Below, piece by piece: positions 22,616 to 26,404 of a DNA stretch of 64,000 bases. The notes beneath the pieces were generated by a model, which saw only the letters and a list, made by a program, of their open reading frames with translations, was not told where the DNA came from and searched no databases. Source of the DNA: a virus; UHGV virus genome UHGV-0076294. One strand, given 5' to 3'. A program made the translations under genes and the position numbers. The number at the start of each line of letters is the position of its first letter. Position 1 is the stretch's first letter.

Positions 22616-22924
22616 ATGGAAAACTATTCGGGTTGGGCGATTTCGCAGTGCATTGGCTATTCTTTACGTTCTTTAGTGCGTACACTTTATAACAAAAACT
22701 CGGGTGAAGCTATTACACCGCAGTTATTGGGCAAACTGGAAGTCGAAGTTAACTATAAACTAAAACAGTTACTCGACAACCACGTAAGAACAATGCGTTG
22801 GGAGTTCTTGCTACGTGGTAAGAAGCCTTCAATTACCGTTGTAGCAGAAGGTAGTGAAATCGTACTGCAATCCAACGCAGACCTGTTTGAAATTTTAACT
22901 GAACTAGAAAAGGACAAAATCTAA
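22616..22924 (+). CDS. hypothetical protein
   Basis: 102-aa ORF; its stop overlaps the thyA start (TAATG). Confidence 0.7.
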
Positions 22925-23964
22925 TGAAACAGTATTTAGCGTTAATGCAAGACATTCTGGATAACGGCGTTGTCAAAAAAGACCGTACGGGCGTAGGGAC
23001 ACTTTCTGTATTTGGTCGCCAACTACGTTTTGACCTGAAAGAAGGTTTCCCATTAGTTACTACGAAAAAGGTTCACCTGAAAAGTATCATTCATGAACTG
23101 TTATGGTTCTTGAACGGTGACACTAACGTGAAGTACCTGCAAGAGAATGGGGTAAGAATCTGGAACGAGTGGGCGAATGAAGAAGGGGAATTAGGCCCTG
23201 TCTACGGACACCAGTGGCGAGAATGGATGGATACCAAACTGGTTTATCTTTGGGACGAGCGTAGCAAGGACGTATTGAGAAAACGAGGATATCGCTACGT
23301 TGGGACTATCGCAAAGGACGATCCTGAAGAAAGTATCGTTATTTATCGCAAATCTCACGACCAGATCAGCAAAGTTATCCAGCAACTTCGTGAAGACCCT
23401 GACTCCCGCCGTATTATCGTTAGTGCCTGGAACGTAGCCGACCTAGACGATATGGCACTTAACCCATGTCACAACTATTTCCAATTCTACACAACGGAAA
23501 TGACGTTGCCTGAACGACTGGATTGGTACGAAGTAAACGAACCGGAAAAATTTGCGAACGCACCACTTATTAATCACGAAGATATCGATAGCGAAGAACG
23601 ACTTCACGAAATTTTAGATCGTGAAGGTATCCCACGTCGTAAACTTTCGTGTTTTTACATGATGCGGAGCAACGATTACCTACTCGGCGCGCCGTTTAAC
23701 GTCGCTTCTTACGCGTTGTTAACCCACATGATTGCTCAACAACTCAATATGGTTCCAGACGAGTTAGTTTACAGTGGCGTGGACGTTCATCTGTACTCTA
23801 ACCATCTGGAGCAGGCAAAACTTCAACTTACTCGCGAACCTTACCCGCTACCTAAACTGGTTATCAAACGTAAACCTGATTCTATCTTCGATTACAAATA
23901 CGAAGACTTCGAATTGGTTGGATATCAATCGCACGACACAATTAAAGCTCCCATAGCTGTCTAA
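22924..23964 (+). CDS. thyA: thymidylate synthase (ThyA) with two insertions
   Basis: 346 aa, near-colinear with E. coli ThyA ([83 protein letters not shown]). Catalytic Cys (PCH) and the dUMP-specifying Asn (PFNVASY) are retained. Confidence 0.95.
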
Positions 23965-24268: not shown

Positions 24269-24302
24269 GGTTATTTCGCTTGTAGTTAAAAGGAACATTG
24301 AA

Positions 24303-24749
24303 ATGTCTAAAACTCATGTTAACTATAACATCGTAGTAGAAGAATTATCAAAAGGTTTAACCGACCTGGATTCTAAAGATAACCCATTTACCGATCGTTA
24401 TGGAGCCAAAGCTTTATCTGAGTTCCGTACTATCCGCTACGGTACAGGTAGACAGACAGGGCTTACAGACTTTGCTGTCGAGTTAGCTAAGAACCATAAA
24501 GGGAAGGTATTATTCGTTAATCCAAAAGGGTTCTTAGAGGACGATGTGCTATTCCGTTTGGGTCTCGAAGACTTACCGGAGAATATCACCCAAATCATTG
24601 GTTACCAAATGGGTACAGAAAAAGAAAAATACAGCCTTGTTATTGTAGACAACGCTGGGGTTTTCTTTAGCATTTTCCGTTACATGAAGTTCTTTCGCTT
24701 ACTGGCAAACTCAGTAACTAAAGACGTCGTAATACATTTAATGGGTTAA
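24303..24749 (+). CDS. hypothetical protein with degenerate P-loop (GTGRQTGLT) and Walker-B-like LVIVDNA
   Basis: 148-aa ORF, SD AAAGGA. The Walker A lysine position is Leu. Confidence 0.7.
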   Translation: MSKTHVNYNIVVEELSKGLTDLDSKDNPFTDRYGAKALSEFRTIRYGTGRQTGLTDFAVELAKNHKGKVLFVNPKGFLEDDVLFRLGLEDLPENITQIIGYQMGTEKEKYSLVIVDNAGVFFSIFRYMKFFRLLANSVTKDVVIHLMG

Positions 24750-24767
24750 TCAGTGGGGGTTAGTTCT

Positions 24768-24938
24768 ATGGAAGAATTAGAGGCGGTTCCCTGTTACATT
24801 CCTAGAAGAGGTGTTATAAAAGAATGTTTCATCGATCGTATTTTGATCTCTCGTATCAAGAAAGGTCCAAGAAAACATCAAACCAAGAAGGTATTTATTT
24901 ATAAATACTTCGAAAAGATTCTATTCCAACCTTACTGA
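24768..24938 (+). CDS. small basic protein, KGPxK family member 1
   Basis: 56 aa from ATG 24768 (G-rich SD 8 nt upstream; the track start GTG 24753 is the alternative). Motif RIKKGPRKHQTKKVFI. Confidence 0.6.
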   Translation: MEELEAVPCYIPRRGVIKECFIDRILISRIKKGPRKHQTKKVFIYKYFEKILFQPY

Positions 24939-24966
24939 CTAAATTAACTCAGGGAGTAAATTTGCT

Positions 24967-25164
24967 ATGTTAGACGATGTTCTTAATTTCACGATAATGT
25001 ATTTCGAACCGAAGAAGTTCCGTACTATCGCCACACGTTACTGTAAAGGGCCGAACAAAGGACGTAAACGTTTCCAAGTAATTCAACTTGATTATTCCAA
25101 GTTCCTTGTAGCTAATCCATTCGAGCGGAAACCTAATGAAGAAACTGGATTTGGTCAAAATTGA
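24967..25164 (+). CDS. small basic protein, KGPxK family member 2
   Basis: 65 aa, SD GGGAG. Motif RYCKGPNKGRKRFQVI. Confidence 0.6.
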   Translation: MLDDVLNFTIMYFEPKKFRTIATRYCKGPNKGRKRFQVIQLDYSKFLVANPFERKPNEETGFGQN

Positions 25165-25351
25165 TTATCTCGTTGGAGGGGTAATTTTTATCGGTTACGC
25201 GCATAAACGCAAAGGTCCTGGTAAATCCAGGACTCGCGGGTTCCGTATAGTGAAAAGAAACCATAATATTAATCCTCTAATAATGGTCTTAGGAAAGCTA
25301 ACCTTTTTAATTTCAAAACGTGTGCCATCTTTGGTAAAATTTGGAGAGTAA
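25136..25351 (+). CDS. small basic protein, KGPxK family member 3
   Basis: 71 aa, overlapping the upstream gene by 29 nt. Motif HKRKGPGKSRTRGFRIV. Confidence 0.55.
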   Translation: MKKLDLVKIDYLVGGVIFIGYAHKRKGPGKSRTRGFRIVKRNHNINPLIMVLGKLTFLISKRVPSLVKFGE

Positions 25352-25353
25352 AA

Positions 25354-25497
25354 ATGACTGAAGAAGTTAAAGTAGAAACCGTTAAAGAAACTGACGAATT
25401 TGCAATCCCTGGCTTAGACCCGGAAGCTACTGTAGAGAAGGGTGCTGACCCAACCACGGAAGACGATAACTGCTCAGGCGGGGCTTGCAAAATTTAA
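25354..25497 (+). CDS. 47-aa highly acidic peptide ending in CSGGACKI (below the ORF-track size cut-off)
   Basis: ATG 25354 with SD GGAGAG 5 nt upstream, 2 nt after the upstream stop. Translation: MTEEVKVETVKETDEFAIPGLDPEATVEKGADPTTEDDNCSGGACKI*. Followed by the hairpin at 25506. Confidence 0.55.
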   Translation: MTEEVKVETVKETDEFAIPGLDPEATVEKGADPTTEDDNCSGGACKI

Positions 25498-25505
25498 CAG
25501 TTCAC

Positions 25506-25542
25506 GGGGTGCTTATGTAGCACCCCTAATCCTTATTCTTTT
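25506..25542 (+). terminator. hairpin/terminator closing the small-gene islet
   Basis: GGGGTGCT tatgt AGCACCCC. The T-run (CTTTTTT) begins about 10 nt downstream, so efficiency is uncertain. Confidence 0.5.
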
Positions 25543-25565
25543 TTGTTAATCTAATGGAGTTTAAA

Positions 25566-26396
25566 ATGGGCGAACGTTTTGACATCAACGCTATCTACAA
25601 CATCGTAGTTAATCCTGGTCAACACCTGGAAGAAGTTAATGCACAACTGCGTGCTCTGAACGAGAAAGCGATTCAGTTTGATGCTATCTACACCATCGGC
25701 GTAAATCCTGGTACTAACCGTGTTCGTGTAGAAGGTAAACGCCACACCGGTAATCAGGAACTGGACATTGAAACGATCGAAGCCCCGATTAAACTTACCG
25801 ATGCCGAATATAACGGTACAGTAATGCACACCGTATCGGTTCCGGTCTACTCTATCGAGAACTGTGTAGAACGTGTTAAAGGTTGGTCTAAAGAACGTGG
25901 TATTCTCGACAACGGTAAACTGGAAACACAAATCACGAAGTTCTTTGAAGAGTTTGGTGAAATCGCAACAGGTATCAGCAAAAACAAACCTGAACTGATC
26001 ATGGACGGTATCGGCGATGCGTTAGTGGTTCTGGTGAACATTCTGGAACTGGGTAAAGAATACCATGACGAATACTTAACAACGGCCGATATTATTAGTA
26101 GCGGTTTAACTATGCAACTTCGTGATGTTGCAAATGTTGAAGCTTGTGCAAACGATCATAAATTCCCACATCGAAAATACCTGGAAGCAACTAATTCTTT
26201 TTCCACGTCTTTCTTAAATACTAACAAAGACGATAACCTGTTCGATCATGGTTTGTATTGCCTTGCTTGTCTCGCGCTGTATTACAAACTGGACATTCGC
26301 CATTGCTTCTCTTTAGCCTGGCACGAAATCAAAGACCGTAAAGGTTACCTGAACGCCGACGGCATCTTTGTAAAAGATGCAGACTTGGCGAAATAA
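25566..26396 (+). CDS. MazG-like nucleoside triphosphate pyrophosphohydrolase with repeat-containing N-terminal domain
   Basis: ATG 25566 has GGAG 5 nt upstream; the track start 25554 lacks an SD. MazG blocks FFEEFGEIATG and DGIGDALVVLVNILE. N-terminal duplicated FD..AIY.I.VNPG. Confidence 0.65.
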   Translation: MGERFDINAIYNIVVNPGQHLEEVNAQLRALNEKAIQFDAIYTIGVNPGTNRVRVEGKRHTGNQELDIETIEAPIKLTDAEYNGTVMHTVSVPVYSIENCVERVKGWSKERGILDNGKLETQITKFFEEFGEIATGISKNKPELIMDGIGDALVVLVNILELGKEYHDEYLTTADIISSGLTMQLRDVANVEACANDHKFPHRKYLEATNSFSTSFLNTNKDDNLFDHGLYCLACLALYYKLDIRHCFSLAWHEIKDRKGYLNADGIFVKDADLAK

Positions 26397-26404
26397 ATAA
26401 AAGT

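What the first reader, a model, noticed from the sequence alone, without database searches (positions are those of the whole stretch)
25354..25497. Untracked 47-aa, net -9 acidic peptide ending in CSGGACKI, translationally coupled to the mini-paralog array
ATG 25354 follows the upstream stop by 2 nt and has GGAGAG 5 nt upstream. The product MTEEVKVETVKETDEFAIPGLDPEATVEKGADPTTEDDNCSGGACKI has 13 acidic and 4 basic residues and no hydrophobic core. Its only two Cys form a CxxxC four residues from the C-terminus. The layout (long acidic leader-like part, short Cys-containing end) could fit a nucleic-acid mimic or inhibitor, a metal- or disulfide-loop peptide, or a modified-peptide precursor. No modifying enzyme is visible nearby.
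Basis: seen in the sequence. Interest (0 to 1): 0.6.

Follow-up and report, generated by a model that had tools for sequence, protein, structure and literature searches.

The report
Phage copy of ribonucleotide-reductase redox tail
This 47-residue phage peptide is a stand-alone copy of the flexible cysteine tail that bacterial ribonucleotide reductase uses to receive electrons from thioredoxin or glutaredoxin, and the three complete carrier genomes checked have no reductase, so it probably acts on the host's DNA-precursor supply.

Summary
The ORF at 25354-25497 (+) is real and conserved. Its two cysteines are spaced C-x4-C, not CxxxC, and the second lies two residues before the stop.

The last 15 residues (PTTEDDNCSGGACKI*) match the extreme C-terminus of class Ia ribonucleotide reductase alpha (E. 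coli NrdA ...PSIQDDGCESGACKI*). That is the disordered tail whose Cys754/Cys759 carry electrons from thioredoxin or glutaredoxin to the active site.

- A family profile searched against all PDB sequences finds only RNR-alpha C-termini (E = 6e-4).
- Some family members share 13 consecutive residues with true enterobacterial NrdA tails.
- The family has 59 clusters at 50% identity. Members are 39-120 aa, the N-terminus varies, and the tail is nearly invariant under purifying selection.
- It occurs in jumbo phages of Enterobacterales: SPN3US (original gp234), CR5, many Erwinia phages and others.
- It always sits among dNTP-metabolism genes (ThyA/ThyX, dUTPase, dCMP deaminase, MazG).
- Three complete carrier genomes encode no detectable class I or III RNR, thioredoxin or glutaredoxin.

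Best reading: a free tail mimic that plugs into the host thioredoxin/glutaredoxin-to-RNR relay. I favour a trans-acting electron shuttle, but an inhibitor or decoy is a serious rival. No paper describing it was found. Function is inferred, not shown.

The parts
25354..25497 (+). ORF of the 47-aa acidic peptide (free-standing RNR-alpha tail mimic), stop included
   Evidence: Homologues in phage records, IMG/VR loci and protein databases. PHROGs 14561/38753/24014.
25343..25348 (+). Shine-Dalgarno-like GGAGAG, 5 nt before the ATG. It overlaps the last two sense codons (G-E) of the upstream ORF, directly before its TAA stop at 25349-25351.
   Evidence: Close relatives have weaker GGAAAC/GGGAAC at the same place.
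25405..25449 (+). Family-specific conserved segment IPGLDPEATVEKGAD (IPGLDP...VEGGVD in relatives). It is not present in NrdA and its role is unknown; it may be a docking motif.
   Evidence: Alignment A3. In other lineages it is replaced by an LD-like acidic amphipathic motif followed by FDGVxVEGGVD.
25450..25494 (+). 15 codons, PTTEDDNCSGGACKI, homologous to NrdA residues 747-761 (PSIQDDGCESGACKI), the C-terminal redox tail
   Evidence: tblastn of full-length E. coli NrdA hits exactly 25450-25494, its best hit in the window. Profile against PDB gave E = 6e-4, RNR alphas only. Host tails.
25471..25488 (+). C40-S-G-G-A-C45: the C-x4-C pair that corresponds to NrdA Cys754/Cys759
   Evidence: Both Cys are invariant in A3. 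Codons vary (TGC/TGT) while the residues are kept.
25506..25526 (+). 8-bp G+C-rich hairpin followed by a U-rich run, between the peptide stop and mazG. Terminator-like.
   Evidence: strand folding: -16.3 kcal/mol, z = -3.97. Conserved in close relatives. Not called by the strict terminator scan.
22924..23964 (+). Context: thymidylate synthase (ThyA), the upstream anchor of the conserved dNTP-metabolism neighbourhood
   Evidence: (PF00303)
25554..26396 (+). Context: MazG-like nucleotide pyrophosphohydrolase directly downstream, syntenic in SPN3US-like phages
24303..24749 (+). Context: 148-aa protein of unknown function (PHROG 2586), the conserved immediate neighbour of the peptide in SPN3US-, Caitlin- and other Erwinia-phage lineages
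24753..25351 (+). Context: three small basic ORFs (61, 65 and 71 aa; the second and third overlap by 29 nt) that share a KGP motif. In some relatives the last one is fused in frame to the peptide.

Best explanation
The gene encodes an intrinsically disordered, acidic peptide. Its last ~15 residues are a free-standing copy of the C-terminal redox tail of class Ia ribonucleotide reductase alpha (NrdA).

Background on NrdA: the tail cysteines (Cys754/Cys759 in E. coli) are reduced by thioredoxin or glutaredoxin-1. The tail then swings into the active site, in the model cited for eukaryotic R1 that of the partner subunit, and re-reduces the disulfide left by each turnover.

The three complete carrier genomes checked have their own thymidylate and dNTP-handling genes but no RNR, thioredoxin or glutaredoxin. 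I therefore propose that the peptide works on the host relay. Host Trx/Grx1 reduce its C-x4-C pair. The peptide then enters the host NrdA active site in trans as an extra, diffusible electron shuttle. This would raise host RNR turnover, and so dNTP supply, for replication of a >220-kb genome.

Shown:
- the ORF and its conservation;
- the tail homology;
- purifying selection on the tail;
- the dNTP-gene neighbourhood;
- absence of RNR and redoxins in three complete carrier genomes.

Inferred:
- expression;
- reduction by Trx/Grx;
- access to the NrdA active site;
- the direction of the effect (boost rather than block).

I put about 0.8 on the tail being an NrdA-tail homologue or mimic, about 0.6 on it engaging the host Trx/Grx-RNR relay, and about 0.4 on the full shuttle/booster statement.
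For: Tail identity:
- E. coli NrdA ends ...DDLVPSIQDDGCESGACKI*. The peptide ends ...GADPTTEDDNCSGGACKI*.
- tblastn of full-length NrdA against the window, whole SPN3US and the CR5 locus hits only residues 747-761, and they land on this ORF's C-terminus.
- A profile of the last 30 residues of 13 members, searched against 177,635 PDB sequences, gives RNR alphas as its top 14 hits. These are E. coli NrdA 747-761 (E = 6e-4), 1QFN_B (the NrdA 25-mer solved in complex with glutaredoxin), 8VHP and 7MDI. All align end to end with both C-termini.
- NrdA tails of 80 Enterobacterales species read ...QDDGCESGACKI...QDDGCEGGACKI or ...AEDDGCAGGACKI. The last is identical over 13 residues to the peptides of L035-L039.

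Selection:
- G30, D32, C40, G43, A44, C45 and K46 are invariant, while the N-terminus varies from 0 to 70 residues.
- Across all pairs, the last 11 codons show 961 synonymous against 504 non-synonymous codon differences.
- In 59 clusters the match ends at the protein's own C-terminus in all but four.

Context:
- The gene lies between ThyA and MazG in SPN3US-like phages.
- It lies directly after dUTPase in L034.
- It lies among a dNMP kinase, ThyX, dUTPase and a dCMP deaminase in L039.
- It lies between a dCMP deaminase and ThyA in L028-L033.

No RNR:
- SPN3US (240,413 bp), CR5 (223,989 bp) and Snuvirus pEa_SNUABM_7 (265,635 bp) have no NrdA/B/E/F/D/G, TrxA, GrxA, NrdH or T4 NrdC by tblastn.
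- None is annotated either.
- A review reports RNR beta conserved in over half of jumbo phage genomes.

Mechanistic precedent:
- The tail of the second R1 polypeptide reduces the active site. Trx and Grx cannot reach the active site. Adding a second route of active-site reduction gives up to 3-fold more activity (PMC4078304).
- In P. aeruginosa the redox cysteines sit on a separate polypeptide, NrdJb, that works in trans (PMC4520616).
- The peptide is predicted to be disordered, like the native tail.
Against: - There is no expression, binding or activity data for any member.
- Host NrdA already carries two tethered tails at high local concentration. A free peptide would need high abundance or a docking site to matter.
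- The conserved upstream motifs (IPGLDP..VEGGVD, or an LD-like motif) are not part of NrdA and are unexplained. They hint at another partner.
- Tail variants do not track host tails exactly. Erwinia phages carry CTGGACKI, CEGGACKI and CESGACKL, while the Erwinia species sampled have CESGACKI.
- The same anatomy fits a competitive blocker equally well.
- Only 64 kb of this phage was examined. Absence of RNR in its other ~160 kb is inferred from collinear relatives.
- Class II RNR was excluded only by annotation.
Confidence: 0.4

Rival explanations
1. Competitive inhibitor or decoy. The peptide occupies the NrdA active-site channel, or soaks up reduced thioredoxin/glutaredoxin, and so blocks regeneration of host RNR. 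This would be functionally like yeast Sml1, which interferes with the R1 tail step. The effect could be to shut down host or competitor DNA synthesis while the phage lives on breakdown products of host DNA, processed by its own dCMP deaminase, ThyA and kinases.
For: - The tail homology is the same as for the main explanation.
- Extra conserved motifs could give higher affinity than the native tail.
- The phages carry a full salvage and thymidylate toolkit but no RNR.
- Small disordered proteins that inhibit RNR through the tail step exist (Sml1; from my own knowledge, not tested here).
Against: - A 220-265 kb genome multiplied by the burst size probably exceeds what host DNA can supply, so blocking the only RNR looks costly (inference).
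- Both cysteines are retained without exception, although one would be enough for a trap.
- No homology to Sml1 or Spd1: Pfam gave no hit.
Confidence: 0.25
2. Targeting or adaptor module. The tail serves as an address tag that docks whatever is attached to it onto host NrdA or Trx/Grx. The attached part could be the acidic LD-like motif and its binding partner, or a fused domain. One use would be to pull host RNR into a phage dNTP-synthesising assembly in the cytoplasm.
For: - The tail occurs as a C-terminal module on unrelated N-terminal parts. These are a basic 73-aa mini-protein (P0004-P0011, L015), a ~290-aa ORF (L021), a 170-aa unidentified domain (P0084) and an IscU fragment (P0080).
- The N-terminal half resembles LD-type docking motifs, though weakly (paxillin and Pex19, E = 0.13-0.3).
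- There is a conserved neighbour of unknown function at 24303-24749.
- Phage thymidylate enzymes stay in the cytoplasm of nucleus-forming phages (PMC12908238).
Against: - Most members are bare peptides of 39-70 aa.
- Some fusions may be gene-calling or assembly artefacts.
- No partner has been identified.
- The LD-motif match is not significant.
Confidence: 0.12
3. Precursor of a modified peptide (RiPP-like). An acidic leader precedes a Cys-containing core that is processed by the two radical-SAM proteins found elsewhere in SPN3US and CR5.
For: - The leader/core-like layout.
- SPN3US ACQ60_gp102/103 and CR5_153/154 are radical-SAM proteins.
Against: - The radical-SAM genes lie tens of kb away (about 32 kb in CR5, about 59 kb in SPN3US) and are not linked in any of the 25 loci.
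- No gene is annotated as radical SAM in pEa_SNUABM_7.
- The 'core' is residue-for-residue a genuine NrdA tail, which this model does not explain.
- The neighbours are dNTP enzymes.
Confidence: 0.05
4. A non-functional relic of a lost phage nrdA 3' end, or a chance resemblance.
For: - The match is short: the single-sequence tblastn E-value is only 0.7-3.
- The gene sits where nucleotide-metabolism genes cluster.
Against: - The profile E-value is 6e-4, with RNR alphas as the only significant hits.
- There are 59 clusters across unrelated jumbo-phage lineages, with an invariant tail and abundant synonymous change.
- The start codon and stop position are conserved.
Confidence: 0.03

Closest known systems
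C-terminal redox tail of class Ia ribonucleotide reductase alpha (E. coli NrdA residues ~737-761, Cys754/Cys759)
   Same: - Same terminal sequence pattern: P-x3-D-D-x-C-x-x-G-A-C-K-I-COOH.
- Same C-x4-C spacing and same distance to the C-terminus.
- Acidic stretch upstream, and disordered.
- Identity is 9/15 for the window peptide, 10/15 for SPN3US and CR5, and up to 13/13 for other members against enterobacterial NrdA tails.
   Different: - It is not attached to any RNR catalytic domain. It is a separate 39-120 aa gene product.
- It is encoded by phages that, in all three complete genomes checked, have no RNR.
- It carries extra conserved motifs that NrdA lacks (IPGLDP/VEGGVD, LD-like).
NrdJb of the split class II RNR of Pseudomonas aeruginosa
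   Same: The redox-active C-terminal cysteines sit on a polypeptide separate from the catalytic subunit. They supply thiol-disulfide exchange in trans (PMC4520616).
   Different: - NrdJb is encoded next to its own tail-less catalytic partner NrdJa in the same organism, and forms a tight complex with it.
- Here no catalytic partner is encoded, and the presumed target (host NrdA) keeps its own tail.
- No sequence relationship was tested or is claimed.
NrdA(737-761) 25-mer peptide used as a glutaredoxin-1 substrate (PDB 1QFN chain B)
   Same: It is a free peptide with the same tail. 1QFN is an entry in which this peptide was solved together with glutaredoxin, and the family profile hits it (E = 0.005).
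   Different: It is a laboratory construct with one Cys replaced (from my own knowledge). The phage peptides are natural genes with both Cys.
Small disordered RNR regulators (yeast Sml1, S. pombe Spd1)
   Same: These are small disordered proteins that act on the large subunit. Sml1 is reported to interfere with the tail-dependent regeneration step (from my own knowledge).
   Different: - No sequence similarity was detected (Pfam gave none).
- They are cellular proteins, not viral.
- They do not carry a copy of the tail itself.

Membership tests
Class Ia RNR alpha (NrdA) C-terminal redox tail | Two cysteines spaced C-x4-C, with the second two residues before the C-terminus | tested here: met
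   C40-SGGA-C45-K-I-stop. Same as NrdA C754-ESGA-C759-K-I-stop. Kept in all but one listed member: P0074 has C-x2-C.
Class Ia RNR alpha (NrdA) C-terminal redox tail | Sequence similarity to bona fide NrdA tails beyond chance | tested here: met
   Profile against PDB: the top 14 hits are all RNR-alpha C-termini, best E = 6e-4. NrdA's only hit in the window and in phage genomes is this ORF. 13-residue identity with Rosenbergiella NrdA tails.
Class Ia RNR alpha (NrdA) C-terminal redox tail | Covalently part of an RNR large subunit (catalytic barrel upstream) | tested here: not met
   The ORF is 47 aa. No NrdA body is present in the window, within +-10 kb in 25 loci, or anywhere in SPN3US, CR5 or pEa_SNUABM_7. 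It is therefore a tail homologue or mimic, not an RNR subunit.
Class Ia RNR alpha (NrdA) C-terminal redox tail | Reduced by thioredoxin/glutaredoxin, and reduces the active-site disulfide | not testable with these tools
   Needs enzymology. See the decisive next steps.
Split RNR redox subunit (NrdJb-like) | Encoded with a tail-less catalytic partner in the same genome | tested here: not met
   No RNR gene of class Ia, Ib or III by tblastn, and none annotated, in three complete carrier genomes.
Split RNR redox subunit (NrdJb-like) | Redox cysteine pair carried on a separate polypeptide | tested here: met
   Stand-alone ORF with its own start and SD.
PHROGs 14561 / 38753 / 24014 (phage proteins of unknown function) | Significant match to the family profile, reaching the profile's C-terminal end | tested here: met
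   E = 1.6e-15, 9.8e-15 and 2.4e-13. Residues 13-47 align to the last positions of each profile.
Sml1/Spd1-type disordered RNR inhibitors | Sequence membership (Pfam family match) | tested here: not met
   The Pfam scan of the peptide returned no family at E <= 1.
Sml1/Spd1-type disordered RNR inhibitors | Small, intrinsically disordered | tested here: met
   AlphaFold2: pLDDT 56, pTM 0.15, no secondary structure.
RiPP precursor peptide | A maturase or modifying enzyme encoded next to the precursor | tested here: not met
   The neighbours are ThyA, MazG, dUTPase, dCMP deaminase, a dNMP kinase and unknowns. The radical-SAM genes of SPN3US and CR5 lie about 59 kb and 32 kb away.

The most novel reading that the evidence does not exclude
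Jumbo phages that lack ribonucleotide reductase carry a tiny gene that is a detached copy of the host enzyme's electron-accepting tail. With it they directly re-wire the redox step of host dNTP synthesis. This would be a previously unrecognised way for a virus to control a host metabolic enzyme: supplying, or jamming, one mobile piece of its catalytic cycle. The tail would also act as a portable module that can be fused to other proteins.
Probability: 0.55. Interest if true: 0.85.

Novelty: new variant of a known kind. Interest (0 to 1): 0.72.

Why it matters
- RNR is the bottleneck of DNA-precursor supply. Re-reduction of its active site through the C-terminal tail is a slow, controllable step.
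- If a phage-encoded free tail feeds or blocks that step, it is a new mode of metabolic takeover. It would explain how large phages without RNR obtain enough dNTPs.
- It would give RNR enzymologists a natural trans-acting tail with which to probe tail access and Trx/Grx recognition.
- It would suggest peptide leads for modulating bacterial class Ia RNR.
- It assigns a testable function to three PHROG families and to a conserved 'hypothetical' gene (SPN3US gp234) that is widespread in jumbo phages of Salmonella, E. coli, Erwinia, Klebsiella, Cronobacter, Dickeya, Yersinia and Serratia.

Tried and rejected
1. megablast of 24300-26400 against the phage collection gave no match. The phage has no near relative in GenBank; relatives were reached by protein search.
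2. Single-sequence phmmer of the peptide against PDB found only an ankyrin-repeat artefact. The NrdA match needed the family profile.
3. Split-gene idea (a phage NrdA lacking its tail): rejected. There is no NrdA body in the window, in 25 loci, or in three complete genomes.
4. A phage-encoded redoxin partner: weak tblastn hits came up (NrdH against CR5_179, E = 0.004; GrxA/NrdH against SPN3US at 139.8-140.1 kb). Pfam finds no Trx/Grx domain there, so I treat these as noise.
5. The idea that the N-terminal half copies the NrdB C-terminal docking peptide (DDLSNFQL against D[DN]ALSxFDG): not supported. The profile of N-terminal halves hits paxillin LD motifs and Pex19 weakly, not NrdB.
6. My guess that P0084's N-terminal domain is a HAD 5'(3')-deoxyribonucleotidase: not confirmed by Pfam or by PDB sequence search.
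7. The strict intrinsic-terminator scan did not call the hairpin after the ORF. Folding shows a stable stem, but its function is unproven.
8. Nine full-text literature searches found no description of such a peptide. One was for the string CESGACKI, one for SPN3US gp234, and the rest for RNR-tail, jumbo-phage and host-RNR term combinations.
9. The rest of this phage's genome (~160 kb) could not be retrieved with the tools. Absence of RNR there is inferred from collinear SPN3US and CR5.

Full report
**1. The observation**

The + strand carries an ORF from ATG 25354 to TAA 25495-25497. It encodes MTEEVKVETVKETDEFAIPGLDPEATVEKGADPTTEDDNCSGGACKI.

- The upstream ORF (25136-25351) stops 2 nt before the ATG.
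- GGAGAG lies 5 nt upstream.
- The peptide has 13 acidic and 4 basic residues.
- One detail in the finding is wrong. The two cysteines are C40 and C45 (C-S-G-G-A-C), which is C-x4-C. The second Cys is followed only by K-I and the stop.
- AlphaFold2 with a 23-sequence alignment gives pLDDT 56, pTM 0.15 and no secondary structure. That fits a disordered peptide.
- An 8-bp G+C-rich hairpin follows the stop at 25506-25526 (-16.3 kcal/mol, z = -3.97), and then a U-rich run.

**2. The ORF is a conserved gene**

The window comes from a jumbo phage. It encodes phiKZ-type tail sheath, tube and vertex proteins.

- megablast finds no near relative in GenBank.
- tblastn with the peptide finds 81 phage records: SPN3US-like Salmonella and E. 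coli phages, Cronobacter CR5, Proteus phage 7 and many Erwinia phages. In the records examined the gene lies a short way upstream of a MazG-like gene.
- A divergent member used as query finds 72 record hits (overlap with the first 81 not checked): Erwinia Snuvirus, Klebsiella phage Miami, and Dickeya, Yersinia, Serratia, Stenotrophomonas and Raoultella phages.
- The peptide matches PHROGs 14561, 38753 and 24014, all of unknown function.
- In SPN3US it is RefSeq ACQ60_gp032. By the reversed numbering this is original gp234.
- An exhaustive HMMER scan of 1.84 billion representatives finds 59 clusters at 50% identity. Most are 39-120 aa, and the match ends at the protein's own C-terminus in all but four.
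- In the alignment the N-terminal part varies from 0 to about 70 residues. G30, D32, C40, G43, A44, C45 and K46 are invariant, and the last residue is I or L.
- Codons for the conserved Cys, Gly, Ala, Lys and Ile vary freely. Over all pairs, the last 11 codons show 961 synonymous against 504 non-synonymous codon differences. This is purifying selection on the + strand reading frame.
- Close metagenomic relatives keep the ORF while the small genes upstream of it come and go.

**3. What the conserved end is**

E. coli NrdA, the class Ia ribonucleotide reductase large subunit, ends ...DDLVPSIQDDGCESGACKI*. The window peptide ends ...GADPTTEDDNCSGGACKI*, and SPN3US gp234 ends ...GVDPSKDDDNCTGGACKI*.

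- tblastn of full-length NrdA against the window, the whole SPN3US genome and other loci gives one consistent hit in each. NrdA residues 747-761 land on the last 15 codons of this ORF (window 25450-25494; 60-67% identity). There is no hit to the catalytic body.
- A profile of the last 30 residues of 13 family members, searched against all 177,635 distinct PDB sequences, returns RNR alpha subunits as its top 14 hits. These are E. coli NrdA 747-761 (E = 6e-4), the NrdA 25-mer of PDB entry 1QFN (a glutaredoxin complex), 8VHP and 7MDI. Every alignment runs to both C-termini. The next hit has E = 1.5.
- I recovered NrdA tails of 80 Enterobacterales species. They read ...QDDGCESGACKI (most)...QDDGCEGGACKI (Brenneria, Pectobacterium) or ...AEDDGCAGGACKI (Rosenbergiella).
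- Phage variants fall inside this range...DDSGCEGGACKI...GGCESGACKL...AEDDGCAGGACKI. The last is identical over 13 residues to a genuine NrdA tail.
- The conserved Pro seven residues before the first Cys is shared as well.

I conclude that the peptide's end is a homologue, or a very close mimic, of the NrdA C-terminal redox tail.

**4. What that tail does**

This rests on established knowledge and on papers read here. After each turnover the RNR active-site cysteines form a disulfide. [quoted passage not shown] Thioredoxin or glutaredoxin then re-reduce that pair, because they cannot themselves reach the active site.

Giving the active site a second reductant route on top of the tail raises activity up to 3-fold. 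The reason is that the oxidised tail must leave and be re-reduced before it can act again (PMC4078304).

In Pseudomonas aeruginosa the redox cysteines of the class II enzyme sit on a separate polypeptide, NrdJb, which works in trans (PMC4520616).

**5. The phages have no reductase of their own**

I fetched three complete carrier genomes and searched them by tblastn with E. coli NrdA, NrdB, NrdE, NrdF, NrdD, NrdG, NrdH, NrdI, TrxA and GrxA, and with T4 NrdC.

| Genome | Length |
|---|---|
| SPN3US | 240,413 bp |
| CR5 | 223,989 bp |
| Snuvirus pEa_SNUABM_7 | 265,635 bp |

- Nothing credible was found, and nothing of the kind is annotated.
- Two weak redoxin-like hits did not hold up in Pfam.
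- None of 25 IMG/VR loci has such a gene within 10 kb.
- A review reports RNR beta conserved in over half of jumbo phage genomes.
- The Snuvirus genome has a different gene repertoire from the phiKZ-like phages: a sigma factor, UvsX, a clamp loader and topoisomerase II. The peptide has therefore spread across jumbo-phage lineages.
- For the phage in the window itself only 64 kb could be examined. The rest is inferred from collinearity with SPN3US and CR5.

**6. Genomic company**

In every lineage the gene sits among dNTP-metabolism genes.

| Lineage | Position of the peptide gene |
|---|---|
| SPN3US-like phages | between ThyA and MazG |
| L034 | directly after dUTPase |
| L039 | among a dNMP kinase, ThyX, dUTPase and a dCMP deaminase-like gene |
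| L028-L033 | between a dCMP deaminase and ThyA |

In nucleus-forming phages the thymidylate enzymes remain in the cytoplasm, where host RNR also is (PMC12908238).

**7. Mechanism**

The shown facts fit a peptide that enters the host thioredoxin/glutaredoxin-to-RNR electron relay.

My preferred reading is a trans-acting shuttle, at about 0.4 for the whole chain. Host Trx or Grx1 reduce the C-x4-C pair. The free tail then reduces the NrdA active-site disulfide alongside the tethered tails. That would raise turnover when a genome of more than 220 kb must be copied many times. Retention of both cysteines and of the exact C-terminal K-I argues for true redox cycling at the native site.

The main rival, at about 0.25, is a competitive blocker or Trx/Grx sink, in the spirit of yeast Sml1.

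A third reading, at about 0.12, is an address tag. The tail occurs fused to unrelated N-terminal parts:
- a basic mini-protein in P0004-P0011 and L015;
- a ~290-aa ORF in L021;
- P0084 and P0080.

Most lineages also keep a second motif that NrdA lacks, either IPGLDP...VEGGVD or an LD-like motif followed by FDGVxVEGGVD. I tested whether this motif copies the NrdB docking tail. It does not: the profile hits paxillin LD motifs and Pex19 only weakly.

A RiPP precursor and a dead relic are unlikely. No maturase is linked, the 'core' equals a real NrdA tail, and selection on it is strong.

**8. Comparison with known things, and novelty**

- The tail is a known functional element.
- A separately encoded redox tail is known once (NrdJb), but there it lies next to its own catalytic partner.
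- A free NrdA tail peptide is known as a laboratory substrate for glutaredoxin (1QFN).
- What is new is a natural, widespread viral gene for the detached tail, in genomes without any RNR.
- Nine full-text searches found no description of it.
- I class it as a new variant of a known kind.
- It fails the membership test for 'RNR subunit' because no catalytic domain is attached. It passes the tests for tail sequence and architecture.

**9. Verdict**

- Identity of the tail: high confidence (about 0.8).
- Action on the host RNR redox step: moderate (about 0.6).
- Direction of the effect: open.
- The decisive experiments are simple enzymology with synthetic peptide, plus a phage knockout.
- Interest: 0.72.

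Noticed in passing
window 24753-25351: There are three small basic ORFs (61, 65 and 71 aa), the second and third overlapping by 29 nt, that share little beyond a KGP motif (17-26% identity). Their number varies among near-identical relatives. In L015 and P0004-P0011 the last one is fused in frame to the acidic tail peptide, giving a 120-aa protein.
   Followed up: partly
window 24303-24749: This 148-aa protein has no Pfam match and no cysteine (PHROG 2586). It lies immediately upstream of the tail peptide in SPN3US, Caitlin-like and other Erwinia phages, and downstream of it in CR5. It may be a functional partner.
   Followed up: partly
L021 6508-8396 and 9023-10093 (IMGVR_UViG_3300011862_000001): ThyA matches in three separated pieces, which suggests an interrupted thyA (intron or homing element). 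In the same contig the redox tail is fused in frame to a ~290-aa upstream ORF, and the 148-aa neighbour is missing.
   Followed up: no
window 25506-25526: A stable 8-bp G+C-rich hairpin (-16.3 kcal/mol, z = -3.97) plus a U-rich run lies between the peptide stop and mazG. It is conserved in close relatives and looks like a terminator, but the strict scan did not call it.
   Followed up: partly
window 25554-26396: The MazG-like gene matches the Pfam MazG domain only at residues 124-178. The ~100 N-terminal residues have no family match, although the whole protein is conserved in PHROG 7855.
   Followed up: no
P0003; GenBank SPFM7/8/9/12 records (P0023, P0027, P0033, P0034): One metagenomic contig carries the ORF with a local duplication or frameshift after DDNCS. 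Several SPFM phage records carry scrambled versions of the gene. These look like assembly problems rather than biology.
   Followed up: no
P0084 (224 aa), P0080 (89 aa), P0076 (111 aa): The same LD-like motif, VEGGVD and C-x-GGACK[IL] tail occur as a C-terminal module on other N-terminal parts. These are an unidentified 170-aa domain, an IscU/NifU N-terminal fragment (Pfam NifU_N, E = 1.3e-18) and an unknown 65-aa part. Their genomic origin was not examined.
   Followed up: partly
SPN3US 140024-142139 (L012 40024-42139) and CR5 132830-134978: Both phiKZ-like genomes carry two adjacent radical-SAM proteins of unknown role. No gene is annotated as radical SAM in the Snuvirus genome.
   Followed up: no
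P0008: A 96%-identical 120-aa fused form is annotated as 'hypothetical protein GAP86_18515 [Salmonella enterica]' on a 223,835-bp contig. The phage in the window is therefore probably a Salmonella jumbo phage of about 224 kb that is not in the GenBank phage collection.
   Followed up: no
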